A program made the translations under genes and the position numbers. A stretch of DNA of 64,000 nt, from NCBI GenBank assembly GCA_963575745.1, contig CAUYUJ010000059.1, forward strand, positions 496,001-560,000, given 5' to 3'. Below, piece by piece: positions 5,636-42,746 of the stretch. The notes under the pieces were generated by a model. The model saw only the letters and a list, made by a program, of their open reading frames with translations, was not told the DNA's origin and did no database searches. Source of the DNA: Prorocentrum cordatum (Eukaryota). Each line of letters begins with the position of its first letter. Within the stretch, counting starts at the first letter, position 1.

Positions 5636-5794
5636 TTCAGTCGGGCATGTCCCTCTACAGGAGGAATATTCAAAAATTGTCGAAGAAATAGTCTGGGGGT
5701 GATGTTTCGATTATGTTTGATTATGCTTGAATATTGTTTGGCTATTTTTCGTTTTCTTCCAAAATCCGCTTGTAGGAAGACATGCCCGACTGAA
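5636..5794. mobile_element. TIR family A MITE, copy 1
   Basis: Termini TTCAGTCGGGCATGTC / GACATGCCCGACTGAA; flanks GGCTACAC / GGCTGCAC (8 bp, 1 mismatch). Confidence 0.85.
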
Positions 5795-10879: not shown

Positions 10880-11035
10880 TTAAGTCGGGCCTGTCCCTCT
10901 ACAGGGGGAATATTCAAAAATAGTCAAAAATAGTCTGGGGATTTTTTCAGTATTTTGGGGCATCTTTTGAGTATTTTTTGAGTCTGCTTTCTTTTTCGTC
11001 CAAAATCCCTCTGTAGGGGGACACGCCCGACCTAA
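10880..11035. mobile_element. TIR family A MITE, copy 2
   Basis: Termini TTAAGTCGGGCCTGTCCC / GGGACACGCCCGACCTAA; perfect 8-bp TSD CTGTAGTC. Confidence 0.9.
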
Positions 11036-11765: not shown

Positions 11766-11811
11766 ATCTAGGAGGCCTCTAGTGCTCGTTGGCGGCATGC
11801 TTCTCTTAGAC

Positions 11812-11972
11812 TTAAGTCGGGCCTGTCCCTCCACAGGGGGAATATTCAGAAATAGTTAAACAATAGTCTAGGGACGATGTTTCTATGATTTGTTCGACCA
11901 TTTTGGAGCATGTTTTGAGTACTTTTAATTTTTCCTCGAAAATCCCCCTGAAGGGGGACAGGCCCGACCTAA
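11812..11972. mobile_element. TIR family A MITE, copy 3
   Basis: Same TIRs; flanked by a 35-bp direct duplication (11777-11811 and 11973-12007, 2 mismatches). Confidence 0.9.
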
Positions 11973-12638
11973 CTCTAGTGCTCGCTGGCGGCATGCTTCT
12001 CTTAGGCCTCTCGCTGGACGGGCGGCCGTCGGCTCCTCCCGCCAGCTCTTGCCCGGGTCGTGGACGAGAGGCCCGCCTGGGCTCCGAGAGCATCGACGTC
12101 CACGACGAACGGAAAAGTATCTTCCACACGCCGACAGGGTCGCCGGTCTGGGGGCCGCCTGGGGAGAGAGAGAGAGAGAGAGAGAGGTCTGTTGGGGAAG
12201 CCTCGGGGGGAATTCGTGAGGGCCTCTGGCGTTATGATGTTCCAACCTACTTGTTTTAGCCTTGATCGCCAGAAAGACTCTCGAGCGCCCAAAAAAAGTG
12301 CCGAAACTCGAGGCTTTTCACGTGTCGGGCCCTGGGAGACACTCGCCCGACATTGTTTCGACACTCTTTTGACACTTTTCCGGGTGCTCGAAATTATTTC
12401 TGGGATCTGGTCCTTAAGAAGGATGGGAACATAATTCTGGTGGAGTTTCCTGGCGGTTTCGAAGGCCATCCTGGAGGGAAGTGCTCGAAGCGTCGCTTCC
12501 AGGTCCCCACTGGGGCCCCTCGTGGGGCCGTCTTGGAGGCCTCCTGAGCCTTCGTGGGGACCGTCTTGGGGGCATCTTGGGCCGCCTTGGGCGCTCTCAA
12601 TGAAGACGGAAAAATTGATCATCCGCAAATCATATAAA

Positions 12639-17240: not shown

Positions 17241-17401
17241 TTACGTCGGGCCTGTCCCCCTACAGAGGGATTTTCCACGAAAAATGCAAAAGATTCAAAA
17301 ACTAGTCCGAAAGAGCCAAAACATGCTCACAAAATAGTCCCTGGACTATTTTTTAAATTATTTTTGAATGCAACCCCTGTGGAGGGACAGGCCCGACTTA
17401 A
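17241..17401. mobile_element. TIR family A MITE, copy 4
   Basis: Termini TTACGTCGGGCCTGTCC / GGACAGGCCCGACTTAA; perfect 9-bp TSD CCCCTTGTG. Confidence 0.9.
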
Positions 17402-19783: not shown

Positions 19784-19947
19784 TGTGTCCTCTCGCGTGT
19801 CCTCTCGCGTGTCCGCGGGCCGTGAGGGGCAGTCAGGAAATGGCTCGGGGTGGCAAGCAAGATCCGCGCCCTGTCCCAGGGGCACGGGCCTGAGATCCCT
19901 CCGCTTAATTCGAGCCTGTCCCCCTACAGGGGGATTTTCGACGGAAA

Positions 19948-22241
19948 ATTACCCTGGCGACGTACCCAACCCCTGCGCAAACGCGGGGCGCAAATAGTTT
20001 AGGACACTTTATAAGGGGGGCGATGACGGAGCGAGGGTTACATATGTCTGCAGACGGAATTCGGGAGACTCGCAGGACACTGGCTTCAGGACAAGGACTA
20101 GATAAAGCTGATTAGTTGCAATCCCTGAGCAACCCTAGCCACTTCGAAAGCGGGGATCTCAGATCGCAGCCCCCCAGGGATGGCGAGGTCTAATTTGGCC
20201 CGTGGCGTCACTGTGCTGAGCCCCCCAGCAGGCCTCGATGATTTGGGCCCGAGTCGCGTTTCACAGATCGCAGCCCCCCAGGGATGGCGAGGTCTAATTT
20301 GCCGCGTGGCGTCACTGTGCTGGCCCCCCAGCAGGCCTCGAAAGTGGCGACAGTTTCACAGATCGCAGCCCCCCAGGGATGGCGAGGTCTAATTTGAATC
20401 CGCCCGTGGCGTCACTGTGCTGGGCCCCCCAGCAGGCCTCGAAAGTGGCGACAGTTTCACAGATCGCAGCCCCCCAGGGATGGCGAGGTCTAATTTGGGT
20501 CCGCCCGTGGCGTCACTGTGCTGGGCCCCCCCAGCAGGCCTCGAAAGTGGCGACAGTTTCACAGATCGCAGCCCCCCAGGGATGGCGAGGTCTAATTTGA
20601 ATCCGCCCGTGGCGTCACTGTGCTGGGCCCCCCAGCAGGCCTCGAAAGTGGCGACAGTTTCACAGATCGCAGCCCCCCAGGGATGGCGAGGTCTAATTTG
20701 GGTCCGCCCGTGGCGTCACTGTGCTGGGCCCCCCAGCAGGCCTCGAAAGTGGCGACAGTTTCACAGATCGCAGCCCCCCAGGGATGGCGAGGTCTAATTT
20801 GAATCCGCCCGAGGCGTCACTGTGCTGGGCCCCCCAGCAGGCCTCGAAAGTGGCGACAGTTTCACAGATCGCAGCCCCCCAGGGATGGCGAGGTCTAATT
20901 TTGAATCCGCCCGTGGCGTCACTGTGCTGGGCCCCCCAGCAGGCCTCGAAAGTACGACAGTTTTGCAGATCGCAGAATCCGCCCGTGGCGTCACTGTGCT
21001 GGCCCCCCCAGCAGGCCTCGAAAGTGGCGACAGTTTCACAGATCGCAGCCCCCCAGGGATGGCGAGGTCTAATTTTGAATCCGCCCGTGCGTCACTGTGC
21101 TGGGCCCCCAGCAGGCCTCGAAAGTGGCGACAGTTTCACAGATCGCAGCCCCCCAGGGATGGCGAGGTCTAATTTGAATCCGCCCGTGGCGCCACTGTGC
21201 TGGGCCCCCCAGCAGGCCTCGAAAGGGCGACAGTTTCACAGATCGCAGCCCCCCAGGGATGGCGAGGTCTAATTTGAATCCGCCCGTGGCGTCACTGTGC
21301 TGGGCCCCCCCAGCAGGCCTCGAAAGTGACGACAGTTTCACAGATCGCAGCCCCCCAGGGATGGCGAGGTCTAATTTGAATCCGCGCGTGGCGTCAGTGC
21401 TGGGCCCCCCAGCAGGCCTCGAAAGTGCGACAGTTTCACAGATCGCAGCCCCCCAGGGATGGCGAGGTCTAGTTTGAATCCGCCCGTGGCGTCACTGTGC
21501 TGGGCCCCCCAGCAGGCCTCGAAAGTGGCGACAGTTTCACAGATCGCAGCCCCCCAGCGATGGCGAGGTCTGATTTGAATCCGCCCGTGGCGTCACTGTG
21601 CTGGGCCCCCCAGCAGGCCTCGAAAGTAGCGACAGTTTTACAGATCGCAGAATCCGCCCGTGGCGTCACTGTGCTGGGCCCCCCAGCAGGCTTCGAAAGT
21701 GGCGACACTTTCACAAATCGCAGCCCCCCAGGGATGGCGAGGTCTAATTTGAATCCGCCCGTGGCGTCACTGTGCTGGGCCCCCCAGCAGGCTTCGAAAG
21801 TGGCGACAGTTTCACAGATCGCGGCCCCCGAGGGATGGCGAGGTCTAATTTGAATCCGCCCGTGGCGCCACTGTGCTGGACCCCCCAGCAGGCCTCGAAA
21901 GCGGCGACAGTTTCACAGATCGCAGCCCCCCAGGGATGGCGAGGTCTAATTTGAATCCGCCCGTGGCGTCACTGTGCTGAGCCCCCCAGCAGGCCCCGAA
22001 AGTGACGACAGATTCACAGATCGCAGCCCCCCAGGGATGGCGAGGTCTAATTTGAATCCGCCCGTGGCGTCACTGTGCTGGCCCCCCCCAGCAGGCCTCG
22101 AAAGTGGCGACAGTTTCACAGATCGCAGCCCCCCGCAGGCAAGACAGGAGGAGGTAAGAGGGAGGCGGGAAGGAAGGAAGGAGGAAGTGGAGAGCACACT
22201 GCTCTATTCAAAACGAATTCCCAACCAGGAGGGTTGGGAAT
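19948..22241 (-). mobile_element. Non-autonomous Helitron2/Helentron-like element with a ~101-bp tandem array (~19 units)
   Basis: Ends ATTACCCTGGCGACGTACCCAACC and hairpin CCCAACC..GGTTGGGAAT; array ~20160-22135. Confidence 0.65.
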
Positions 22242-22257
22242 AAAAGATACCCCAGAC

Positions 22258-23640
22258 ATTACCCTGGCGACGTACCCAACCCCTGCGCAAAAGCGGGGCG
22301 CAAATACTTTAGGATATTTATAAGGGGGCGATGACGGACCGAGGGTTACATATGTCTGCAGACGGAATTCGGGAGACTCGCAGGACACTGGCTACAGGAA
22401 GAGGACTTGATAAAGCTGATGAGTTACAATTCCTGAGCACTCCTAGCCACTTCGAAAACGGGGATCATAGCAGCCTCGAAAGTGGCGACAGTTTCACAGA
22501 TCGCAGCCCCCCCAGAGACGGCGAGGTCTAATTTGAATCCGCGCGTGGCCCTCACTGTGCTGGGCCCCCCAGCAGGCCTCGAAAATGGCGACCGTTTTAC
22601 AGATCGCACCCCCCCAGGGATGGCGAGGTCAATTTGAATCCGCACGTGGCCCTCACTGTGCTGGGCCCCCCAGCAGGCCTCGAAAATGGCGACAGTTTCA
22701 CAGATCGCAGCCCCCCAGGGATGGCGAAGTCTAATTTGAATCTGCCGTGGCCCTCACTGTGCTGGGCCCCCCAGCAGGCCTCGAAAATGGCGACAGTTTC
22801 ACAGATCGCACCCCCCCAGGGATGGCGAGGTCACATTTGAATCTGCGCGTCGCCCTCACTGTGCTGGGCCCCACAGCAGGCCTCGAAAATGGCGACAGTT
22901 TCACAGATCGCAGCCCCCTAGGGATGGCGAGGTCTAATTTGAATCTGCGCGTCGCCCTCACTGTGCTGGGCCCCCCAGCAGGCTTCGAAAATGGCGACGG
23001 TTTCACAGATCGCACCCCCCCAGGGATGGCGAGGTCTAATTTGGAATCTGCGCGTCGCCCTCACTGTGCTGAGCCCCCCAGCAGGCCTCGAAAATGGCGA
23101 CAGTTTCACAGATCGCAGCCCCCCCAGGGATGGCGAGGTCTAATTTGAACCTGCGCGTCGCCCTCAGTGTGCTGGGCCCCCCAGCAGGCCTCGAAAATGG
23201 CGACAGTTTCACAGATCGCAGCCCCCCAGGGATGGCGAGGTCTAATTGGAATCTGCGCGTCGCCCTCACTGTGCTGAGCCCCCCAGCAGGCCTCGAAAAT
23301 GGCGACAGTTTCACAGATCGCAGCCCCCCAAGGGATGGCGAGGTCTAATTTGAATCTGCGCGTCGCCCTCACTGTGCTGGGCCCCCCAGCAGGCCTCGAA
23401 AATGGCGACAGTTTCACAGATCGCAGCCCCCCAGGGATGGCGAGGTCTAATTTGAATCTGCGCGTCGCCCTCACTGTGCTGGCCCCCCCAGCAGGCCTCG
23501 AAAATGGCGGCTGTTTCACAGATCGCAGCCCCCCGCAGGCAAGACAGGAAGAGGCAGGGAGGGAGGAGGAGGAGGAAGGAAGGAGTGGAGACCACACTGC
23601 TCTATTCAAAACGAATACCCAACCAAGGAGGGTTGGGAAT
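22258..23640 (-). mobile_element. Second copy of the same element, with a variant ~101-bp array (~10 units)
   Basis: Same termini and same ~200-bp leader as 19948-22241. Confidence 0.65.
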
Positions 23641-23721
23641 AATCCAAAGATGGTCCAAAAATAGCATGGGGATTATTTGTTGATTATTGATTGACCTTTT
23701 TGGGGCATTTTTGGGGCAGTT

Positions 23722-24371: not shown

Positions 24372-24949
24372 TCGCACTGGGATGATTTCTATGCTTCGTC
24401 GACAGTCCCCCTGTAGGGGGACAGGCCCGACTTGACCCCGAGAGCCCTCATGCGCCGCCCACGGCCCGGCGCCCCCTGCGGAGCAGGGGCCGGGGCAGCG
24501 CCCCCACGGGGGGAGTCGGGGGCGCCGGGGCCGATGCTGAGCGGCGGCGTCCAAGATCTAAAACGACGCGAAGATCGGGACAAAATCGGATCGGGATAAC
24601 TCGAAATCTCTGAGAATCGGCGGGTTTGGAGGATGTATTGGGCGCCGCGGCCGCTCCAGAGCGTTCCGGAACGCTCTGAGAGCGCTCCAGAACGCTCTGG
24701 AGCGATTTATCCCGATCCTAGCCCTGTTTTAAAGATCTGGACGCCCGAAATGGGCGACAAACTTGAAAGGCTCACCGTGGCAACCAGACCCCAACACTGC
24801 GGGCTCTGATCAAATCGACAGCAGCCATGCCCATGATGAGGATACCCGAGGGCGACGTCAGCACCAACGCAAAGCCCATCGTGGCCCGAGCAGTAGTTGT
24901 TCAGGGGGCGGAGAAGTTGGCCATGGGGACCACCCAGAAGCCGCAGTTC

Positions 24950-30698: not shown

Positions 30699-30937
30699 TC
30701 GTCAATCCTAAGTATGAAATTATATCATCCCAGCTAGGCCGGTATCCCCCCCTGAGGTTCCCTTGTAAAAAACACTAGGCGGTGACATTTGTTGTTCTAA
30801 CATAACACTTTTTCACGAATCCCTTGCAAAAAATGGGACGAAGTGCACACGCGCGCGTCGTCGCGCGCGCATGCCGAAATCCTTCAAAAACCTTCGGTGC
30901 CGGAAGGATTTCGCAATCGAGTTCCCAAACACATACA

Positions 30938-32549
30938 AATATCTTGGCGAAGGACCCAACCATATGCTGTTGCGGGTACCGCAATTGTGAAAATCTTCTT
31001 CCGTGAAACTCCCTATGGGGCCACGAAGCGCTGCATTGGGTGGGGGGGAACGCTGTTCTGGGTGAGTGGTGTGTCAAGTAAGGTTTCCGGGACGCATGCG
31101 GACGGTCCCACTGGGAGCTTCGGTGGAGCTCCCTGTGGGGCCACGAAACGCTGTACTGGGTAAGTGAAAATGCCAAATTGGGCCTCTGGGACGCATGCGG
31201 ACGGTCCCACTGGAGGCTTCGGCGGAACTCCCTATGGGGCCACGAAACGCTGTACTGGGTGGGCGAAAATGCCAAATTAGGCTTCCGGGACGCATGCGGA
31301 CGGTCCCACTGGGGGGGGGCTTCGGTGGAGCTCACTATTGTATTGGGTAGGTAAAAATGCCACGTTGGGTTTTCGGGACGCATGCGGACGGTGGCACTGG
31401 GGCCTTCGGTGGAGTTCCCTACGGGGCCACGAAATTTTAGTTTGGGTGGGTGAAAATGCCACATTGGGTGCTTCGGGACGCTTGCGGACGGTCCCACTGG
31501 GCCCTTCGGTGGAGCTCCCTGTGGGGACATGAAACAATGCACTGGATGGTGAAAATGCCACGTTAGGTGTGCGGGACGCATGCGGACGGTGGCACTGGGG
31601 CCTTCGGTGGAGCTCCCTGTGGGGCCAAGAAACGTTGTAATGGGTGGGTGAAAATGCCACATTGGATGTTTCAGGACGCACTTCCCACTGGGGGCTTCGG
31701 TGAGGCTCCCTATGTGGCCACGAAACGCTGTACTGAGTGGGGGGGGACGCATGTGGACGGTAGCACTGTGACCTTCGGTGGGGCTCCCTATGGGGCCACG
31801 AAACGCTGTACTGAGTGGGGGGGACGCATGTGGACGGTGGCACTGGGGCCTTCGGTGGAGCTCCTTATGGGGCCACGAAACGCTGTACTGAGTGGGGGGG
31901 ACGCATGTGGACGGTGGCACTGGGGCCTTCGGTGGAGCTCCCTATGGGGCCACGAAACGCTGTACTGAGTGGGGGGGACGCATGTGGACGGTGGCACTGG
32001 GGCCTTCGGAGCTCCCTATGGGGCCCACGAAACGCTGCACTGAGTGGGTGGTGGACGGTGGCACTGGGGCCTTCGGTGGAGCTCCCTATGGGGCCACGAA
32101 GCGCTGTACTGACTGGGGGGGACGCATGTGGACGGTGGCACTGGGGCCTTCGGTGGAGCTCCCTATGGGGCCACGAAACGCTGTACTGAGTGGGGGGGGC
32201 GCATGTGGACGGTGGCACTGGGGCCTTCGGTGGAGCTCCCTATGGGGCCACGAAGCGCTGTACCGAGTGGGGGTGACGCATGTGGACGGTGGAACTGGGG
32301 CGTTCCGTGGGGCTCCCTATGGGGCCACGAAACGCTGTACTGAGTGGGGGTGACGCATGTGGACGTAGCACTGGGGCTTTCGGTGGAGCTCCGTATGGGG
32401 CCATGAAACGCTGTACTGAGTGGGGGGACGCATGTGGACGGTGGCATTGGGAACGGGAGAAGGAGGGGGAGGAGGAGGAGAGGAGAGGAGGAGGAACGCG
32501 GGGACGGTCTGTTCAAAACGAGGACCCAACACTACAGGTTGGTTGGGAA
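30938..32549 (-). mobile_element. Helitron2/Helentron-like element (subfamily 2) with a 77-120-bp tandem array
   Basis: Ends TGGCGAAGGACCCAACCATATGC and AAAACGAGGACCCAAC..GGTTGGGAA. Confidence 0.65.
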
Positions 32550-32842
32550 AAACACAGGGTTTCGCAACACTGAGTTGCTAAAAAAGCTTCCGCGCGAGCT
32601 CTTGCGAAATCTGAAGAAAACCATTGGTTTTTCAAAATTTTCACAAAATGCTACCAAACGGGCGTCGCGCGCGCGCATGTCGAAATCTGTCGAACGCCCT
32701 TGCGCGTGTGCCGTCGCGAGAATCCTCTGCAAAAAATAAGGCGAAGTGCAGACGCGCGCGTCGTCGCGCGTACGCCGAAATCCTTCAGAACCCATCGGTT
32801 TCGGAAGGATGTCGAGCTCGCGCGTCCAAAAAAAAACTTACA

Positions 32843-34745
32843 ATTAGCCTGGCGAAGGACCCAACCATATGCAGTTGTGAGTAATGCTGGTGTGAGTACC
32901 GTCTTCGGTGGATCTCCCTATGTGGCCACGAAACGTGTGAGGGGTGTGCCGAAATGGGTGTGGGGGCGGCATGCGAACGTTGCCACTGGTGCCTTCGGTG
33001 GAGCTCCTTATGAGGCCACGAAACGTGTGAGGGGTGCACCGAAGTTGGTGTGGGGGCGGCATGCGAACGCAGCCACTGGGGCCTTCGGTGGAGCTCCCTG
33101 TGGGGCCACGAAACGTGTGAGGGGTGTGCCGAAATTGGTGTGGGGGCGGCATGCGAACGCAGCCACTGGGGCCTTCGGTGGAGCTCCCTATGGTGCCACG
33201 AAACGTGTGAGGGGTGTGCCGAAATGGGTGTGGGGGCGCATGCGAACCCAGTCACTGGGGCCTTCAATGGAAATCCCCATGGGGCCACGAAACGTGTGAG
33301 GGATGTGCCGACATGGGTGTTGGGGAGGCATACGAACCAGGCCACTGGGGCCTTCGGTGGAGCTCCCTATGGGGCCACGAAACGTGTGAGGGGTGTGCCG
33401 AAATGGGTGGTGGGGAGGCATGCGAACGCAGCCACTGGGGCCTTCGGTGGAGCTCCCTATGGGGCCACGAAACGTGTGAGGGGTGTGCCGAAATGGGTGG
33501 TGGGGAGCATGCGAACCCTGCCACTGGGGCCTTCGGTGGAGCTCCCTATGGGGCCACGAAACGTGTGAGGGGTGTGCCGAAATGGGTGGTGGGGAGGCAT
33601 GCGAACCCTGCCACTGGGGCCTTCGGTGGAGCTCCCTATGGGGCCACGAAACGTGTGAGGGGTGTGCCGAAATGGGTGGTGGGGAGGCATGCGAACCCTG
33701 CCACTGGGGCCTTCGGTGGAGCTCCCTATGGGGCCACGAAACGTGTGAGGGGTGTGCCGAAATGGTGGTGGGGAGGCATGCGAACCTGCCACTGGGGCCT
33801 TCGGTGGAGCTCCCTATGGGGCCACGAAACGTGTGAGGGGTGTGCCGAAATGGGTGGTGGGGAGGCATGCGAACGCAGCCACTGGGGCCTTCGGTGGAGC
33901 TCCCTATGGGGCCACGAAACGTGTGAGGGGTGTGCCGAAATGGGTGGTGGGGAGGCCACTGGGGCCTTCGGTGGAGCTCCCGATGGGCCACGAAACGTGT
34001 GAGGGGTGTGCCGAAATGGGTGGGGGGGGCATGCGAACCCTGCCACTGGGGCCTTCGGTGGATGGGGCCACGAAACGTGTGAGGGGTGTGCCGAAATGCA
34101 TGCGAACCCTGCCACTGGGGCCTTCGGTGGAGCTCCCTATGGGGCCACGAAACGTGTGAGGGGTGTGCCGAAATGTGTGGTGGGGAGGCATGCGAACCCT
34201 GCCACTGGGGCCTCGGTGGAGCCCCCTATGGGGCCACGAAGCGTGTGAGGGGTGTGCCGAAATGGGGGTGGGGAGACATGCGAACCCTGCCACTGGGGCC
34301 TTCGGTGGAGCTCCCTATGGGGCCACGAAACGTGTGAGGGGTGTGCCGAAATGGGTGGTGGGGAGGCATGCGAACCCTGCCACTGGGGCTTTCGGTGGAG
34401 CTCCCTATGGGGCCACGAAACGCGCGAGGGGTGTGCCGAAATGGGTGGTGGGGAGGCATGCGAACCTTGCCATTGGGGCCTTCGGTGGGGCTCCCTATGG
34501 GGCCACGAAACGTGTGAGGGGTGTGCCGACATGGGTGGTGGGGAGGCATGCGAACTTTGCCACTGGGGCCTTCGGTGGAGCTCCCTATGGGGCTACGAAA
34601 CGTGTGAGGGGTGTGCCGAAATGGGTGGTGGGGAGGCATGCGAACCCTGAGGGAGGAGGGGGAGGAGGAGGAGGAGGAGGAGGAGGAGGAACGCGGGGCA
34701 CCGTCTCTCCAAAACGAAGACCCAACACCACAGGATGGTTGGGAA
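32843..34745 (-). mobile_element. Helitron2/Helentron-like element (subfamily 2) with a 90-bp tandem array (~19 units)
   Basis: Same termini; 90-bp period (GCCACGAAAC at ~32925, 33015, 33105, 33195). Confidence 0.65.
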
Positions 34746-34799
34746 AAACCTAGGGTTTCGCAACACGGATTTTTAACAAAAGCGTGCGCGCGCGTTCTT

Positions 34800-35310: not shown

Positions 35311-36667
35311 GTCTGAACAGGTTTTGCAAACCAAGTTGCGGGTTGGTGGGTGGGATGTTTGCACGAGCAGTGGAGAGGACAGCTTCAAGACAGTCAAAGT
35401 GGATTGCACCCGAAAGATTGCGCGAGGACTCGAACTCGTGCCCGCGCTGGCAGCACTGCAGTTGCATGTCTGGTCTTCTTATGGGCGGTTTGGGGACAGG
35501 TTGCATCACAACAGTGCAACATTAGGATCGAACCATCATGTAGAGCCCCCGGCGCCTAGGGAGCACTGAATCAATTGTGTGAGCGCGACGTGTAGCGAAA
35601 ATGTGTCGCCCCATTTCCAGGTCAACATAACAATTGCCGAGTCATTATTCTCGCCGTCATCATCGCCATTGTCATCGCAACACGGTTTTACCATTGTCTG
35701 CCATTAGTTATCGTCATCATTGTGAGCATCGTCGCCATAATCGGCATCATCATGTTGGGGAGTTCCAATCAAAGTCAACATGCCAACATCCAAACAGAGG
35801 CACGGATCTAATCATTCTCCATTGGACGCCAATGGGATTGAACGCGCCAGCGTGGAAAAGCACAATGTTGGGTTTTGCATGTCCTGGACGTGCTACATGC
35901 GTTGGCGCAGGGATGATGGGCCCGATCGGGATGACCAGCTTGAGCGGAGATCTTTGCCCTGAGTAGTGCTGTCGCGCCGTGCGCGAGCCCAGACATGGTC
36001 AGCGCCGCGCGCAAAGTAAAGTTGAAGGGTAGAGGAGCAGTGGTTTTACTGGTGGAGGGGGCATCCGCAGAGCAGGTGTCGACGCTGTGATACACACCGC
36101 GTCGCGGACGGTACTGCCAGACGAACCATCGAACGACAGAAGTTCGGGCGCGTGGGCCACGAGGCTGGAGCTCGCCGCCGTGGTCGCGCACGGATCCTCC
36201 TCCCACGTTCTCGCTCATCCTCCTCATGAACATCCTCGTTATCCCTATCCTCCTGGCCCTCGTCCGCGGTCTCCGCCCTGACACCCACCTGCGCCTGTTC
36301 TTCCATCTCACTTCGCACCTCGTCCTCGTCCTTCTCGTTTTCTCGTCCACGCCCTACTCTCTCCTCTCTCTTCTTGCCTCTCCTCTCGTGGTCCTCACCA
36401 TCTTCCTCCATCGTCCATCCTCGCCCTCCCCGTCCTCCTCATCCTCCTTTGGGGACTCTCGCGTTGGGGCCGCCTTGAGTCTTTCTTGGAGCTCTCTTTG
36501 AACATCTTGGGACCTTGGGGCGCCGTCTTGGGCCTTTTCGGATGGTCCTGGGGCCCTCCAGAGGCTGCCTTGGGGCAATGTTGGGGCCGTATTGGGTCAT
36601 CGGCCGTATTGGGCCATCCTGGCACCCTTTTACGCCCCTCATGGCGCCATCTTCCTCTCATTGCAGT

Positions 36668-36697
36668 CCTGTTTCGCTCAGGCCATCTCGGCCTCAG
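36668..36697 (+). other. Two tandem degenerate spliced-leader relics upstream of the channel ATG
   Basis: CCTGTTTCGCTCAGG and CCATCTCGGCCTCAG match CCATTTTGGCTCAAG at 11/15 and 10/15, just after TTGCAG. Confidence 0.5.
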
Positions 36698-36746
36698 CTG
36701 CGCGCCCCACCGGCAACCTTCCGCAGCCCGCCCCGACTTCGCCAGG

Positions 36747-37193
36747 ATGGGGCGCACCCCACGTGCGCACGCGGTGTCATCTTCCTCACCGAGACTGCGG
36801 GCGTCGTCGCACAGCCCCAAGAATAGCCCCAGGGGCGGCTCCCAGCAGGGCGCACCCAAGTCGCCCAGAGACCGCCGCCAGGCGCCCGTGCCGCCCATCG
36901 CTGCGACCCAGCTCGATGCGGCGTGGCACCGCGCGGCCGCGCGGCAGGAGCGGAAGCCCACCGACGGGATGCTCGGGGATGACTTCGGCGAGCCCCTGTC
37001 GTTCCGGTCGCAGCTGGCCAAGTTCCAGCAGTACCTGCAGCCGGAGGAGCTCTTGGACGCCAGCAACTCTGCCAGGCAGCCCCCCCCGAGGCCGGGCCAG
37101 CTCGGGCAGGCGCCCGCCTCCCTGCACGGCCAGCTGGAGCAGGCCCTCGCGCGGCACGCGGCGGCGCTGCAAGAGACCGCGGCGCAGCACAAG
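36747..37193 (+). CDS. Exon 1 of a single-domain voltage-gated cation channel gene (low-complexity/coiled N-terminus)
   Basis: ATG at 36747, 149 GC3-rich codons ending ...QETAAQHK, then AAG|GC donor at 37194. Joins in phase 0 to the exon at 39869. SL-like relics lie just upstream. Confidence 0.65.
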
Positions 37194-37195
37194 GC

Positions 37196-39196
37196 GTGAG
37201 TCGGCCTGTCCCTCTACAGAGGGAAGATCTGAGAGCAGTGAAAAAATCAGCCTGACGAAGGACCCAACCATGTGCAGGTGTGTGTACCGCACTCGTGATT
37301 CACTTTTCCGGTGGTGATCCCTATGAGGCAACGAACCGTGCTAGGGGTGTGCCGAAATGAGTGGCGTGGTACACAACGCGAACGAAAAGGATTGATCTGA
37401 GTACGTAGGGAGACCGAGCGCGGGCGAATCTGAGCGCGAGTGCGTCTGATTGTGAATGAATCTGCGTGCGAGCGAGTCTACGTGCATGAATGCGAGTATG
37501 ACAAAGCATGGTGTAGTTGTATATGAATGTCAATAGTTTGAGAATGACTGCCTCTGAGTACTCGTGACGCTGGGCCTGGGACTCCCCGCCGGCATCGCCC
37601 GCGCGCCGCGACGCCAATGTCGGCGCGCCCCCACGCGAGGATCGCGCCCGCTTCCTCCCCTTTTTTTACTCCCTCTTTGCCCGCGCACTCAAAAGTCCAA
37701 GGTTGCGGGCGCAGCGCAGCGCGGAGTCGCCGCGACGCGCGCAGGTCGCCCCGGAGGGGTCCCAGCGACGCGCGCGGGTCGTCCGCTGCGCGGAGCAAAG
37801 AGAGGTAGATGGCTGGCTGATAGCGGGCAAGGCTCTTGCCGCTGGGCAGAGCGACGACGGGCGAGCGAGGCGCGGAACCCCGACGGCCTCCGACGGAGGT
37901 GTACTGGGTGGGGGGGGTGACGCATGCGGACTGCGCCACGGGGGCCTTCGGTGGAGCTCCCTCTGGTGCCACGACACGCTGTACTGGGTGGGGGAACCGC
38001 ATGCGGACAGCGACACGGGGACCTTCGGCGGAGCCCCTATGGGGCCACGACACGCTGTACTGGGTGAGGAAGACGCATGCGGACTGCGCCACGGGGACAT
38101 TCAGTGGGGTTCCATATGGGGCCACGACACGCGGCACTGGGCGCGGGAGACGCATGTGGACTGCGCCACGGGAACCTTCGGTGGAGCCCCTATGGGGCCA
38201 CGACACGCTGTACTGGGTGGGGGAGACGCATGCGGACTGCGCCACGGGGACCTTCGGTGGAGCTCCCTATGGGGCCACGACGACGCTGGACTGGGTGAGG
38301 GAGACGCATGCGGACTGCGACACGGGGACTTTCTCTGGAGCCCCTATGGGGCCACGAAACGCTGTACTGGGTGGGGAAGACGCATGCGGACTGCGCCACG
38401 GCGACCTTCGGTGGCGCTTCCCGTGGGGCCACGAAACGCTGTACTGGGTGGGGAAGACGCATGCGGACTGCGCCACGGGGACCTTCGGTGGAGCCCCATA
38501 TGGGGCCACGAAACGCTGTACTGGGTGGGGGAGACGCATGCGGACTGCGCCACGGCGACCTTCTCTGGCGCCCCCTATGGGGCAACGAAACGCTGTACTG
38601 GGTGGGGGAGACGCATGCGGACTGCGCCACGGAGACCTTCGGTGGCGCTCCCTATGGGGCCACGACACGCTGGACTGGGTGAGGGAGACGCATGCGGACT
38701 GCGACACGGGGACCTTCGGTGGAGCCCCTCTGGGGCCACGAAACGCTGTACTGGGTGGGGAAGACGCATGCGGACTGCGCCACGGGGACTTTCGGTGGAG
38801 CCCGTATGGGGCCACGACACGCTGTACTGGGTGGAGGAGACGCATGCGGACTACGCCACGGAGACCTTCGGTGGAGCTCCCTATGGGGCCACGACACGCT
38901 GTACTGGGTGAGGGAGACGCATGCGGACTGCGCCACCGGGACCTTCGGTGGAGCCCCGATAGGGCCACGAAGCGCTGTACTGGGTGAGGGAGACGCATGC
39001 GGACTGCGCCACGGGGACCTTTGGTGGCGCTCGGTGGCGTTCCCCGTGGGGCCACGAAGCGCTGCACTGGGGGGTGATGATGATGATGTTGATGATGATG
39101 ATGCTGATGATGATGAGTACAACGGTGACGATGATGACGATGATGTTGATGGTAATGATGATGATGATGATGGATGATGACGATGATGATGATGAC

Positions 39197-39294
<98 letters not shown>

Positions 39295-39862
39295 CGACGC
39301 TAATGAGGATGAAGATGAGAGGAGGAGAAGAAAATTAGCTTGGCGAAGGACCCAACCATATGCAGCTGCGAGTACCGCACGGATATGAGACGAAGGAGGG
39401 GGCACGCAAACTGGGCCCCTCTTCTCATAGGCACCGCGCCACTGGGGCCTTCGGTGGAGCTCCCCATGGGGCCACGAAACGTGTGAGGGGTGTGCCGAAA
39501 TGGGTGTTGGGGAGGCATGCGAACCCTGGAGGGAGGAGGGCGAGGAGGAGGAGGAGGAGGAGGAGGAGGAGGAGGAGAGGAACGCGGGGCACCGTCTCTT
39601 CAAAACGAGGACCCAACACCACAGGATGGTTGGGAAAAAGAGGAGGAGGAGGAGGAGGAGGAGGAGGAGGAGTAGGAGGAGGAGGAGGAGGAGGACACGC
39701 GGGGACCGTCTTTTCAAAACGAGGACCCAACAACACAGGTCGGTTGGGAAATAGTCCAGGGACGACTTTCTGGCTGTTTTTGAGCATCTGGGGCCATTTT
39801 GGGAAGTTGTTTTTTTCATTGGTCGTCCAAGGTCCCCCTGCAGGGGGACAGGCCCGACCTAA
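37196..39862. mobile_element. TIR family A copy 6, forming intron 1 of the channel gene
   Basis: Termini GTGAGTCGG-CCTGTCCCTCTACAGAGGG / CCCCCTGCAGGGGGACAGGCCCGACCTAA; TSD CACAAGGC / CACGAGGC. Removing the nested insert 37246-39750 leaves ~162 bp. Confidence 0.85.
37246..39750 (-). mobile_element. Helitron2/Helentron-like element with a ~77-bp array and (GAT)n, containing a nested short copy at 39334-39636
   Basis: Two left ends (37246, 39334) and two right ends (39636, 39750). Confidence 0.65.
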
Positions 39863-39868
39863 CACGAG

Positions 39869-40024
39869 GCGGAGCTGACGCGGGCGGCCGAGCTGATCGG
39901 GCAGGAGCTCGGGCGCGCGGTGGGCGAGGCGCTGCTGCGCGGTCAGGGCCTGGCGGCGTCATCCGCGCGCGGCGCGCCGTCCGCCGCGCGGGCCGGCGGG
40001 AGCGTGCCCCCGCAGGCGCGGCAG
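39869..40024 (+). CDS. Exon 2 of the channel gene (AELTRAAELIGQELGRAVGEALLRG...)
   Basis: CACGAG|GCG acceptor, open GC3-rich frame, donor CAG|GT at 40025 (an alternative in-frame CAG|GC at 40016 is possible). Phase 0 on both sides. Confidence 0.6.
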
Positions 40025-40761
40025 GTGCCGTCCTCCTCCTCCTCCTCCTCCTCCTCCTCCTCTTCCTCCTCCTCCTCCTCTCCTCCTCCTCCTCCTCCCC
40101 TCCTCCTCCCTCCTCCTCCTCCTCCTCCTCCCTCCTCCTCCTCCTCCTCCTCCTCCTCCTCCTCCTCCTCCTCCTCCTCCTCCTCTCCTCCCTCCTCCTC
40201 CTCCCCCCCTTTTTTCTCCTCCTCCTCCTCCTCCTCCTCCTCCTCCTCCTCCTCCTCCTCCTCCTCCTCCTCCTCTTCCTCCTCCTCCTCATCATCATCA
40301 TCATCCTCCAAGCAAGCGACGCGCTGATCAAGCAGTGGCGAAGCGTCCTGGCTCGCCTATAACCCTACCGAACAGTGTGCTGATGGACCTGTTTTCCACC
40401 ACCACCACCACCACCATAAGTTGGAGGGGGAATTGGGGTCCTCCTCCTGCTCCTCCTCCTCCTCCTCCTCCTCCTCCTCCTCCTCCTCCTGCTCCTCTTC
40501 GTCCTCCTCCTCCTCCTCCTCATCCCACTTCCCCCCTCCAACTTATGGTGGTGGTGACGGAAAACAAGCCCATCAATGTTCTAAAACCTTTTGTGGTTCT
40601 TACGAAATGTTATTGGAACATGTCTGGCGGAGTCTGTCTTGTTTTATCACATCGGGCTTACGTTCTAAGAACATGGTTTTGTTATTCGAACGTTTGGGGG
40701 TTCTAAGAACGTTTCGTGGTAGGACTATAGGAATGCCGGGACGGTCGGTCCCCGCTCAAAG

Positions 40762-42051
40762 GGCGCCAGCCAGGTCGAGGATGAGGCGGCGGCCGGCGGC
40801 CAGCAGGAGCGCGAGGCCCCGAAGCCCTCGCCGCCAAGCCCGTCGAAGCACGTCGTGGCGATCGGGGACCTCGCCGACGTCGATCCAGCCGGGAACGATC
40901 CGCTCGGAGGCGGCGAAGCGCGAAGGATGAGCAGCCGCGGCGGGAGCGACTCAGATGCCAGGAGAACCACAAAAGAATCGAGCTGTTCTGCGGCGAACTA
41001 CTCTGTCCTTGGCTACTCAGAACGGACTAGGTTCGAGAGGTTGATCAGGGGTGTCACGGCACAAATGAATGTGGAAGAGCCGCAACACCACGGACTTCTA
41101 GCGGAGTTTGTTCAAAGTAGGGCATTTGACATCAGTTGCAATTTGGTCGTTCTCTTGAATTGTATATTCGTTGTCTGGGCGGCGAATCACTCAGTGGGGA
41201 CTTCCGATGCAAATGACACGATTGCGTTGGCTGAATTCGTTTTCACCGCATTTTATTGTGTTGAGCTCGTCTTGAAGCTCTGGGTCCACCGATTGTTCTT
41301 CTTCACCAACGAAGACGCGGCATTCAATATATTGGACTTGGCTTTGGTGCTCATGGCTCTGTTCGAGATTTCGATATTACCACTCCTGCAAACAGGCTCG
41401 GGCGCAGTAGACCCTACGTTTTTGCGGATCCTCCGCATCTTCAAGGTTGTCAAAGTCCTCCGAATGATGCGCGCCCTCCACGCGTTCAAGGACATCCGCG
41501 TAATGATAGATTGTTTGGTGCACTCAGTCTGGCCCTTGGTTTGGGCGAGTGCACTGCTCGGATTCCTATCATCCCTCTTCGCCATTTACTTCGTCCAAAG
41601 TGTGGCTGCCGCTTTGTCGGATGGCAACCTGAGCCCCGCCCAAGAGAAAGAGTTGCTGGAGCACTTTGGACAGGTAGAGACAGCGTTGTTCTCGCTGATA
41701 GTGGCCACGACAGGAGGCAACGACTGGGCATATTATTACGAGAGGCTGGAGCCATTAGGGGGCTTTGCGTGCGTTGTATACGTCGTCTACATAATGTTCA
41801 TGTTCCTTGCGGTGATGAACATCGTTACGAGCGTGTTTTTGGACAAAGCGATGGAGATCGCCAAGCCATGCTCGGAGAACGAGGTACTGGACAAGTGCCA
41901 CTCGGACCTGCATGACGCAGACGAGCTTATCCGCATGGTGTCTGGCAAGCGCGAGGATGACCAAGACACCATCACCTTCGGCGAGTTCGTTGGCTACATG
42001 AACGAGCGAGAGTTCCGGAAGCATTTCGATGCACGGGGCCTGACCCAACAG
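40762..42051 (+). CDS. Exon 3 of the channel gene: ion-transport (6TM) domain plus EF-hand-like motif
   Basis: S1-S3 hydrophobic helices (FYCVELVLKL, WN-like 'FNILD'), S4 'LRILRIFKVVKVLRMMRALHAF', pore 'TTGGNDW', S6 'MNIVTSVFLDKAM', EF-hand-like 'DDQDTITFGEF'. Acceptor TCAAAG|G at 40761, donor CAG|GC at 42052. Confidence 0.9.
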
Positions 42052-42416
42052 GCGGGGGGGTCAAAGAATGGGGTGAGGATTGCGTGTGTGACCGGGGCCA
42101 TTGAATGTCCCAGAATTCATGGCCGTTATGCTTATTACTTTCCGTATGTGTCTGAGTCGTCTTAGTATTGTTCTTAGTGTTCTCAAGTATTCGTAGTACT
42201 AGTCTTGTAAGTCGCATTATCATCATTAGTATTATTATGAGTGTTATTACCGTTATCATTGTTATTATTATCAGTTGTATTGATGTCACTATTATATTAA
42301 ATATTTGTTTAGTGCATCTCATCCCCCACCACTCGTCCGCGCAGATGCCTCGGGCCAGGATGCGCCAACCTCCGCCTGCCACAACTCCCCCCCATCCTGG
42401 AAGCCCCCCGGGAAAG

Positions 42417-42538
42417 GACACGAGGATGCTGTTCAAGATGCTCACCTCCTACAACTCTGGCACGGTTTGCCAGGGCGGCGAGAAGAGGGTCCAGCTCTCC
42501 GCCTTCCTGGCGGGCTGCATGCGGCTGAAGGGGGAGGC
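42417..42538 (+). CDS. Exon 4 of the channel gene (DTRMLFKML...AFLAGCMRLKGEA)
   Basis: GAAAG|GAC acceptor gives the in-frame join RGLTQQ|DTRMLFKML. Carries the F..GCMRLKG motif typical of the C-terminus of these channels. GT donor at 42539. Confidence 0.8.
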
Positions 42539-42746
42539 GTCCGACATTTAGTTTATGTTGAAAACGTTCAATTGCTCGGCAACGGAAAAGCAGCAACGGC
42601 AGCCCAAAACAGATCAACCATTGGTAGTCCAAAACGGAACCGAACCGAAAACGGCTCGAGCGAGAATCCCAAAATGTCAGACAAACGTCGATACGGAAAG
42701 CGTCAAAAACGAAAGCCTCCAGCGTTGCGAACAGAGCATCTCTGAG

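What the first reader, a model, noticed from the sequence alone, without database searches (positions are those of the whole stretch)
37188..39871. A TIR transposon forms an intron, and its TSD supplies both the GC donor and the AG acceptor (Introner-like)
Seen: CACAAGGC[TIR...TIR]CACGAGGC. Splicing from AAG|GC in the left TSD copy (37194) to AG|G in the right copy (39868) removes the element plus exactly one TSD length and restores the frame (QHK-AELTR). Five other copies of the same family occur in the window. Known: Introners are TIR DNA elements that create introns, and dinoflagellates tolerate GC donors. Inference: this is a generic MITE with no splice signals of its own that becomes a precise intron when it lands on an AGGC proto-splice site, a route opened by GC-donor tolerance.
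Basis: partly seen in the sequence, partly recalled or inferred. Interest (0 to 1): 0.85.

Follow-up and report, generated by a model that had tools for sequence, protein, structure and literature searches.

The report
Transposon-made intron in a dinoflagellate gene
A small mobile DNA element that landed inside the coding part of a dinoflagellate ion-channel gene is cut out of the messenger RNA as an exact intron, using splice sites in the short duplication it made on insertion; this is a clean, RNA-backed example of a route to new introns that is already described in other dinoflagellates.

Summary
A 2667-base element (37196-39862) with terminal inverted repeats is flanked by an 8-base duplication: CACAAGGC at 37188-37195 and CACGAGGC at 39863-39870. 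It belongs to a family of about 160-base non-autonomous elements. The window holds four other full copies and two fragments.

An RNA contig from one public run joins 37191 to 39867. It skips 2675 bases, which is the element plus 8. The 5-base ambiguity of the joint includes the predicted GC..AG cut (37193|39869). The public protein model (Prorocentrum cordatum, ion-transport domain, 100% identical) reads ...QHK|AELTR... A 65%-identical paralogue aligns without a gap across the site.

The gene carries a spliced leader, and another of its introns also uses a GC donor. The intron is the element split at model position about 50 by 2.5 kb of nested repeats.

New details:
- A perfect GTGAGT two bases inside the element is not used in that contig, nor are three AG|G sites in the right arm.
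- The two arms can pair (-49.9 kcal/mol).

The mechanism, with both splice sites recruited from an AGGH duplication, is already published for Polarella (Roy et al. 2020). This is therefore a new member of a known kind. Whether the family makes many introns could not be tested, because no genome is held.

The parts
36665..36666 (+). AG acceptor for the trans-spliced leader; the mRNA body starts at 36667
   Evidence: In one search an X1 contig has a loose end before 36665 that reads TTTTGGCTCA. This matches the 3' part of the dinoflagellate spliced leader, a motif I recall and did not get from a call. In one search the genome shows CCATCTTCCTCTCATTGCAG just before it.
36667..37193 (+). Exon 1 (5'UTR plus CDS from the ATG at 36747), ending ...CAG CAC AAG (Q H K)
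   Evidence: Contigs of X1, X2, X10 and X11 cover parts of 36665-37191. The first in-frame ATG is at 36747. P0001 is 100% identical over 149 aa.
37188..37195 (+). Left copy of the 8-base target-site duplication, CACAAGGC. Its last two bases (37194-37195, GC) are the inferred 5' splice dinucleotide.
37196..37247 (+). Left arm of the MITE (model positions 1-53). Its terminus reads GTGAGT where the family has TTAAGT, and one G is missing from GTCGGGCC.
   Evidence: nhmmer hit 37199-37247, E 4.2e-5; alignment of the ends.
37248..39748 (+). 2501 bases of nested repeats inside the MITE: a 77-base minisatellite x14.7 (37909-39032), (TGA)81 (39075-39318), GAG runs, and modules with GGACCCAAC...GGTTGGG ends that also occur at 30.9-34.7 kb of the window.
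39749..39862 (+). Right arm of the MITE (model positions 50-160). It holds a T-rich tract (GTTGTTTTTTTCATTGG in the 39790-39872 stretch) and three AGG sites (39830, 39842, 39850) that are not used as acceptor in the assembled transcript.
   Evidence: E 3.1e-17.
39863..39870 (+). Right copy of the duplication, CACGAGGC. AG at 39867-39868 is the inferred 3' splice dinucleotide. Exon 2 starts at 39869.
39869..40024 (+). Exon 2 (AELTRAAELIGQELG...PPQAR Q)
   Evidence: X2 records 19 and 21, X1 record 4. The 40024 end is my reading of a 4-base ambiguity.
40025..40773 (+). Intron 2, read as GT-AG with CAGGT repeated at both borders. It holds the long (CCT)n run.
   Evidence: X1 record 4 and X2 record 21 join 40020 to 40771 with one letter between; border sequence; protein reads PPQARQVEDE.
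40774..42051 (+). Exon 3, ion-transport domain
   Evidence: contigs of all 4 runs; Pfam Ion_trans PF00520, E 5.5e-22, on P0001.
42052..42416 (+). Intron 3, read as GC-AG (CAG|GCGGGG ... GAAAG|GAC)
   Evidence: loose ends at 42052 in 4 of 4 runs with the same 30 letters; those letters lie at 42418 in the window. (protein reads LTQQDTRM).
10880..11035 (+). Reference short copy of the family (156 bases), with a perfect 8-base duplication CTGTAGTC. The other full copies are at 5636-5794 (+), 11812-11972 (+) and 17241-17401 (-).

Best explanation
The window is dinoflagellate nuclear DNA. By the 100% protein match it is Prorocentrum cordatum.

What happened (inferred). A non-autonomous TIR element of a roughly 160-base family that makes 8-base target-site duplications inserted into the first coding exon of an ion-transport-domain gene. 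The target was CAC(G/A)AGGC. The last four bases of the target are AGGC, so the duplication put AAG|GC at the left edge of the element and GAG|GC at the right edge.

What happens now (shown at the level of one RNA contig and the public gene model). The spliceosome cuts after 37193 and after 39868. This removes the element plus exactly one duplication (2675 bases) and leaves the reading frame as it was before insertion (phase 0, ...QHK|AELTR...).

How I chose the cut. The joint could lie in any of six registers. I chose GC-AG because it is the only register that ends in AG.

Further inferred steps:
- Insertion created the intron rather than falling into an existing one.
- The 2.5 kb of satellites inside the element are nested additions.
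- The two arms pair in the pre-mRNA. That would bring the two sites together at the base of a stem and hide the GTGAGT and the three AG|G decoys.
- The left (exonic) duplication changed GAG to AAG after insertion, because the paralogue has E there.
For:: sequence of the borders.

TIRs, family membership of both arms, and 8-base duplications in 4 of 5 full copies.

- X2 contig record 19 (579 nt, depth 41.7, 0 other letters) joins 36671-37191 to 39867-39924, skipping 2675 bases with 5 ambiguous bases.
- The same run and X1 also join across intron 2.
- X1 carries spliced-leader letters at 36665, so these are RNA-derived contigs.
- All 4 of 4 runs end at 42052 with letters that continue at 42418, showing a second GC-type donor in the same gene.

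the public protein P0001 (671 aa; its source names it Prorocentrum cordatum, ion transport domain) is 100% identical to exon 1 and reads AAQHKAELTRAAE.

the paralogue P0002 (65% identical) aligns with no gap at the junction and has H-E-G where this gene has H-K-A. The intronic duplication copy CACGAGGC would encode H-E-A.

the arm duplex is -49.9 kcal/mol, against -23.3 +/- 3.9 (minimum -37.1) for 300 shuffles.

GC donors, the AG|GH rule and splice sites recruited from duplications are described for dinoflagellates.
Against: - Only 1 of the 4 runs laid has a listed contig that bridges the junction. In X1, X10 and X11 the listed contigs stop at 37153, 37023 and 37139, which says nothing either way.
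- Contigs cannot show minor isoforms or how efficient splicing is.
- The cut register is not observable; GT..GC and four other registers fit the same mRNA.
- X2 is labelled 'RNA? (a guess)'.
- No relative's genomic DNA could be examined, so the intron-free ancestral state is inferred from arithmetic and one paralogous protein only.
- The stem model is a calculation, not a measurement.
- The copies of the family differ by 20-36%, so the insertion is old and its history (nested before or after insertion) is open.
Confidence: 0.85

Rival explanations
1. The joined RNA comes from an allele or a very recent duplicate of the gene that never received the element (an empty site). The element-bearing copy in the window would then be an unspliced, dead copy.
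For: Only contigs were available and only one bridges the site. Dinoflagellate genes are often duplicated; gene duplication in P. cordatum is stated in the passages seen. An empty site with CACAAGGC would give the same mRNA letters.
Against: The contig matches the window with 0 other letters over 579 nt. The only relative found in 5.8 billion proteins is 65% identical. The element-bearing locus keeps an open frame, a working second and third intron and a spliced-leader site. The public annotation places the model on this locus (one contig for the cluster).
Confidence: 0.06
2. An intron already existed at this codon boundary, and the element later inserted into it. The direct repeat would then be the usual AGG|G proto-splice repeat rather than a target-site duplication.
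For: Intron 2 of the same gene also has a 5-base repeat (CAGGT) at both borders without recognisable TIRs, so short border repeats occur here without a visible element.
Against: The skipped length equals the element plus 8 to the base (2667 + 8 = 2675), leaving no room for older intron sequence. The repeat is 8 bases long and abuts the family's termini exactly, as in the other copies.
Confidence: 0.03
3. The element-made intron is removed in another register or by another route than GC-AG. One possibility is that recognition is driven by the perfect GTGAGT at 37196 with a non-AG 3' end (GT..GC). Another is a hairpin-dependent, boundary-loose excision as proposed for Amoebophrya.
For: The joint is ambiguous over 5 bases. 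GTGAGT lies 2 bases from the inferred donor. The arms form a strong stem. Farhat et al. report introns with inverted and direct repeats and undefined, non-canonical borders (passages).
Against: Of the six possible registers only GC..AG ends in AG. Roy et al. report AG|GH as the conserved dinoflagellate pattern. GT at 37196 with AG at 39868 would skip 2673 bases, not the 2675 seen, and would run into TGA three codons on (my reading).
Confidence: 0.05

Closest known systems
Polarella glacialis introner-like element classes 13, 14 and 12 (Roy et al., bioRxiv 10.1101/2020.10.14.339549; main text read)
   Same: Both the 5' and the 3' splice sites are recruited from the target-site duplication, through an AGGH motif. 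GC donors are accepted. The result is an exact, mostly phase-0 intron in a dinoflagellate gene.
   Different: Those classes make 4- or 5-base duplications. Here the duplication is 8 bases, with AGGC in its last four. The species is different (Prorocentrum by the protein match). Sequence relatedness was not tested, because their Supplemental Dataset 1 could not be seen.
Polarella classes 3, 6, 8 and 10 (8-base duplication; same preprint)
   Same: 8-base duplication, TIR elements, and introns made in more than one register relative to the element.
   Different: As described there, classes 6, 8 and 10 use one end of the element as the 3' site (GHN6 duplication). Here neither used dinucleotide lies in the element. 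The text I read does not list the registers of class 3, so identity of pattern is open.
Introners of Aureococcus anophagefferens and Micromonas (Huff et al. 2016), known here only through the description and from recall
   Same: A non-autonomous DNA transposon whose insertion plus its duplication yields an exact intron.
   Different: In those introners one splice site is carried by the element and only the other comes from the duplication.
'Introner elements' counted in Prorocentrum cordatum (Dougan et al., Genome Biol 2023; passages of the preprint and of supplementary file 1)
   Same: Same species by the protein match. They are introns with inverted repeats at both ends and short direct repeats, reported for 2.4% of all introns.
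   Different: That work is a pattern count (inverted repeats of 8-20 nt, direct repeats of 3-5 nt). The passages I saw give no families, no duplication length and no splice-site origin. Its Supplementary Table 1 (genes with such introns) was not among the files held, so this gene may already be listed there.
Amoebophrya introner elements (Farhat et al., BMC Biol 2021, PMC7789003; passages)
   Same: [quoted passage not shown]
   Different: Those introns are mostly non-canonical with undefined borders and 3-5-base repeats. Here a standard-type GC-AG reading is available and the repeat is 8 bases.

Membership tests
Introner / introner-like element (Huff 2016; Roy 2020; Gozashti 2022) | A transposon-derived sequence co-extensive with a spliceosomal intron, with TIRs and a target-site duplication at the intron borders | tested here: met
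   the element is 37196-39862 and the duplication is 8 bases; the skipped stretch equals the element plus 8.
Introner / introner-like element | Precise removal from mRNA that restores the pre-insertion frame | tested here: met
   X2 contig; the protein reads QHK|AELTR and aligns ungapped to the paralogue.
Introner / introner-like element | Splice sites supplied by the element and/or its duplication | tested here: met
   the only AG-ending register puts GC (37194-95) and AG (39867-68) inside the two duplication copies.
Introner / introner-like element | Many copies of the same family forming introns in unrelated genes | not testable with these tools
   No genome is held. For none of the 6 other places in the window could intron status be tested. 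Their flanks do not look coding where I looked (5.6 kb copy).
MITE (miniature inverted-repeat transposable element) | Short, multi-copy, with TIRs and a fixed-length duplication, and no coding capacity | tested here: met
   four full copies of 156-161 bases. Duplications of 8 bases are recognisable in 4 of the 5 full copies, counting this one; no Pfam transposase in 10 ORFs of 120 aa or more between the fragments at 19.9 and 24.4 kb.
Polarella class 13/14 pattern (both sites from the duplication) | A 4-base duplication of sequence AGGH | tested here: not met
   The duplication is 8 bases; AGGC is its 3' half. It works like class 13/14 but is not that class by duplication length.
hAT superfamily | An 8-base duplication together with hAT-type termini and a hAT transposase partner | tested here: inconclusive
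   The 8-base duplication is met. The termini TTAAG.../...CTTAA do not fit the YARNG terminus that I recall for hAT (recalled, not from a call). No transposase was found in the window.

The most novel reading that the evidence does not exclude
In Prorocentrum any ordinary TIR element with an 8-base duplication becomes an instant, exact intron whenever the duplication holds AGGH. About 8% of the 8-mers in this gene's coding sequence do. Splice-site choice would then be set by the exonic AG|GH rule together with the stem formed by the element's arms. That combination would be strong enough to override a perfect GTGAGT two bases away and three AG|G sites in the last 40 bases. This locus would then be a natural competition experiment. 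It would show that dinoflagellate 5' site recognition no longer follows the intronic GTRAGT consensus, and that the terminal TTA-to-GTG change (which extends the stem into the right duplication copy) is a compensatory adjustment.
Probability: 0.25. Interest if true: 0.55.

Novelty: new member of a known kind. Interest (0 to 1): 0.35.

Why it matters
The finding gives a fully dissected, transcript-backed case of intron birth by an ordinary-looking mobile element. The species is a bloom-forming dinoflagellate for which the papers I could search give only pattern counts of such introns (7 papers hold both 'introner' and 'Prorocentrum'; passages read).

It shows three things:
- The 'both sites from the duplication' route works with an 8-base duplication.
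- Such an intron can grow 16-fold by nested repeats and still be removed exactly.
- A textbook GTGAGT next door is not the site used in the assembled transcript.

It does not change the picture drawn by Roy et al. for Polarella.

Tried and rejected
**Whole genome.** None is held for the window. The genome-wide census of copies and the test for AGGH enrichment in exon-embedded copies could not be run.

**Metagenome scan for the 18-base terminus.** It returned 8 loci. None of the 8 has a second, inverted terminus within 400 bases, and their G+C ranges from 0.44 to 0.74. I took them as chance matches. By hand I expect tens of chance hits for a collection of that size.

**RNA runs.** X1, X10 and X11 have no listed contig across the junction, which is no evidence either way. 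The contigs inside the intron (for example the depth peaks at 38140-38353 and 39424-39637 in X1) lie on satellites that recur in the window. They say nothing about intron retention.

**Protein searches.** Only P0001 and P0002 were found, so the K/E polarity rests on one outgroup.

**Is the 5.6 kb copy also an exact intron?** Its borders would allow G|GC...AAG|GC (my reading). The flanking frames do not look coding, so I dropped the idea.

**A long element between 19905 and 24433?** The flanks do not match as a duplication, and none of the 10 ORFs has a Pfam transposase hit. I rejected it.

**Other checks.**
- Rfam: no family at gathering score in 36000-42600.
- Earlier notes of this scan: nothing.
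- The printed version of Roy et al. (Curr Biol 2023) is not held, so I used the preprint.
- Superfamily assignment is left open.
- CTAAC at 39859-63 as branch point: at about 6 bases it is too close to the acceptor (my own judgement), so I do not claim it.
Full report
**What is in the sequence**

At 37188-37195 the + strand reads CACAAGGC. It is followed at 37196 by GTGAGTCGGCCTGTCCCTCTACAGAGGG. At 39862 a stretch ends with ...CCCCCTGCAGGGGGACAGGCCCGACCTAA, followed at 39863-39870 by CACGAGGC.

The two ends are inverted repeats, matching at 22 of 29 aligned columns. The flanking octamers match at 7 of 8 bases. From the base counts I put the chance of at least 7 of 8 at one fixed pair of places at about 5e-4 (hand calculation).

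**The element's family**

A first motif search showed the same termini elsewhere in the window. I built a profile from three short copies. It finds:
- four other full copies: 5636-5794 (+), 10880-11035 (+), 11812-11972 (+) and 17241-17401 (-);
- two fragments: 19905-19951, and 23635-23716 with 24384-24433;
- the two arms of the copy in question: 37199-37247 (model positions 4-53, E 4.2e-5) and 39749-39862 (model positions 50-160, E 3.1e-17).

The family is 156-161 bases long with termini TTAAGTCGGGCCTGTCCC... and ...GGGACAGGCCCGACYTAA. It makes 8-base duplications: CTGTAGTC 8/8, CCCTTGTG 8/8, GGCTACAC/GGCTGCAC 7/8, and this copy 7/8. One copy is degenerate. That is 4 of 5 full copies with a recognisable duplication.

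No transposase was found. None of the 10 ORFs of 120 aa or more between 19.9 and 24.4 kb gave such a Pfam hit. The family is therefore a MITE of unassigned superfamily.

Copies differ from one another by 20-34%. This copy differs from the others by 27-36%, so the family is old.

**Anatomy of the intron**

The copy in question is a whole MITE split near model position 50 by 2501 bases (37248-39748). The inserted stretch consists of:
- a 77-base minisatellite x14.7 (37909-39032);
- (TGA)81 (39075-39318);
- GAG runs;
- modules with GGACCCAAC...GGTTGGG ends that recur beside the satellite array at 30.9-34.7 kb of the window.

No Rfam family lies in 36000-42600.

**Host and gene**

The translation of 36747-37193 is 100% identical to the first 149 residues of P0001. 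P0001 is a 671-aa protein that its source names as Prorocentrum cordatum, with an ion-transport domain (Pfam Ion_trans, E 5.5e-22). The window's G+C of 58% fits the 59.7% reported for that genome (passage).

An X1 contig carries TTTTGGCTCA before 36665, where the genome has a pyrimidine run and CAG. This matches the end of the dinoflagellate spliced leader as I recall it, so the mRNA body starts at 36667.

**The test by RNA**

I searched for runs holding 36282-42165. RNA-type runs hold 0.21-0.36 of the sampled words and no run holds half. I laid the contigs of four runs from four studies on 36000-42400.

X2 record 19 is 579 nt long, has depth 41.7, and shows no differing letter. It lies on 36671-37191 and goes on at 39867-39924. 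The skip is 2675 bases and 5 bases fit either side. 2675 is the 2667-base element plus one 8-base duplication.

The six possible registers give these first and last intron dinucleotides: AG..CG, GG..GA, GC..AG, CG..GG, GT..GC and TG..CG (my reading).

In the other three runs the listed contigs stop at 37153, 37023 and 37139. They say nothing about the junction.

That X1 and X2 are RNA-derived follows from three points:
- the leader letters in X1;
- contigs that also join across intron 2 (X1 record 4, X2 record 21);
- the identical loose ends at 42052 in all 4 runs, whose letters continue at 42418.

I read intron 2 as GT-AG (40025-40773, with CAGGT at both borders) and intron 3 as GC-AG (42052-42416). 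On this reading two of the three introns of this gene use GC donors.

**Independent lines**

P0001 reads ...LQETAAQHKAELTRAAELIG..., so the public gene model uses the same joint.

The only relative found in two searches of the 5.8-billion-protein collection is P0002, from the same species and 65% identical. It aligns across the site without a gap and has H-E-G where this gene has H-K-A.

The intronic duplication copy CACGAGGC would encode H-E-A. The simplest reading is that the target was CACGAGGC and the exonic copy later changed GAG to AAG. That rests on one outgroup and is inference.

**How it most likely works**

Insertion into CAC(G/A)AGGC duplicated AGGC. This gives AAG|GC on the left and GAG|GC on the right. 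Cutting at both removes the element plus 8 bases and restores the frame in phase 0.

Roy et al. (preprint, main text read) report the following for dinoflagellates:
- GT, GC and GA donors occur;
- exonic AG before the intron and GH after it are conserved;
- the extended intronic 5' consensus is weak;
- in Polarella, classes 13, 14 and 12 recruit both splice sites from an AGGH duplication, while classes 3, 6, 8 and 10 make 8-base duplications, with class 3 splicing in five registers in either orientation.

What differs here is the species, the family and the 8-base duplication with AGGC in its 3' half.

In this gene's coding sequence 148 of 1873 octamers (7.9%) hold AGGH. A sizeable share of exon insertions would therefore be spliceable at once (inference).

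1. *An unused GTGAGT.* The left terminus reads GTGAGT where the family has TTAAGT. This is a perfect classical donor two bases inside the used one. With AG at 39868 it would skip 2673 bases and meet TGA three codons later (my reading). The contig shows 2675. Contigs drop rare forms, and a frameshifted product might be degraded, so non-use is not proven.

2. *Unused AG|G sites.* Three AG|G sites (39830, 39842, 39850) lie in the right arm within 38 bases of the used acceptor.

3. *A strong stem.* The two arms can pair at -49.9 kcal/mol, against -23.3 +/- 3.9 for 300 shuffles. The GTG of the altered terminus pairs with CAC of the right duplication copy. The decoys fall inside the stem, and the donor G and the acceptor AG lie at its base. 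Farhat et al. proposed such hairpins to join exon borders in Amoebophrya (passages). Here it is a calculation only.

**What could not be done**

- No genome is held, so there is no census of copies, no enrichment test and no look at the paralogue's locus.
- The metagenome scan gave 8 chance matches, none with a paired terminus.
- The scan's earlier notes hold nothing.
- For P. cordatum the literature I could search gives a pattern count only: 2.4% of introns have terminal inverted repeats and 3-5-base direct repeats. Its table of genes with such introns and the element lists of Roy et al. were not visible to me and may already include this intron or family.

**Verdict**

This is a real intron made by a MITE, with both splice dinucleotides in the target-site duplication. 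It works like an introner. Membership in a proliferating intron-making family is untested. It is a new member of a known kind, and interest is moderate.

Noticed in passing
window 42539-42746: The public model P0001 ends at ...GEASDI with the stop at 42549-42551. The paralogue P0002 continues GEASSMDVYALGCGLH..., and the window encodes SSMDVYAISCGLHFVRAAQAEF... from about 42747. A GT-AG intron (GGC|GTCCGA ... CTGAG|GTCCAG, with GTCC repeated at both borders) would join them. The annotated C-terminus is therefore probably cut short. No RNA was laid here, because the laid stretch ended at 42400.
   Followed up: partly
window 40022-40026 and 40771-40775: Intron 2 has CAGGT at both borders, an AGGT repeat of the kind Roy et al. 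ascribe to 4-base-duplication introners. I saw no inverted repeats at its ends. It holds a (CCT)n run of about 500 bases.
   Followed up: partly
window 30937-34750, 37248-39748 and 23600-23640: A second repeat family has a GAAGGACCCAACCAT... start and a ...CAAAACGAGGACCCAAC(N)GGTTGGGAAA end. It carries 77-91-base minisatellites and GAG runs. It lies inside the MITE of this intron, and its end also abuts the MITE fragment at 23.6 kb, so it may prefer this MITE as a target or travel with it.
   Followed up: partly
window 5636-5794: This copy's borders (G|GCTACAC ... GACTGAAG|GCTGCAC) would also allow an exact GC-AG removal, with the AG spanning the element/duplication border. The flanks do not look coding.
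   Followed up: partly
window 11780-11995: The 11.8 kb copy sits between two copies of a roughly 20-base flank (TAGTGCTCG(T/C)TGGCGGCATG). Its duplication is obscured by a local tandem repeat.
   Followed up: no
window 36734, 36764, 36777, 41224-41305 and 41948 (table 3): Contigs of the metatranscriptome run X10 differ from the window at these places, while X1, X2 and X11 do not. This is probably strain variation of the same gene in the sea.
   Followed up: no
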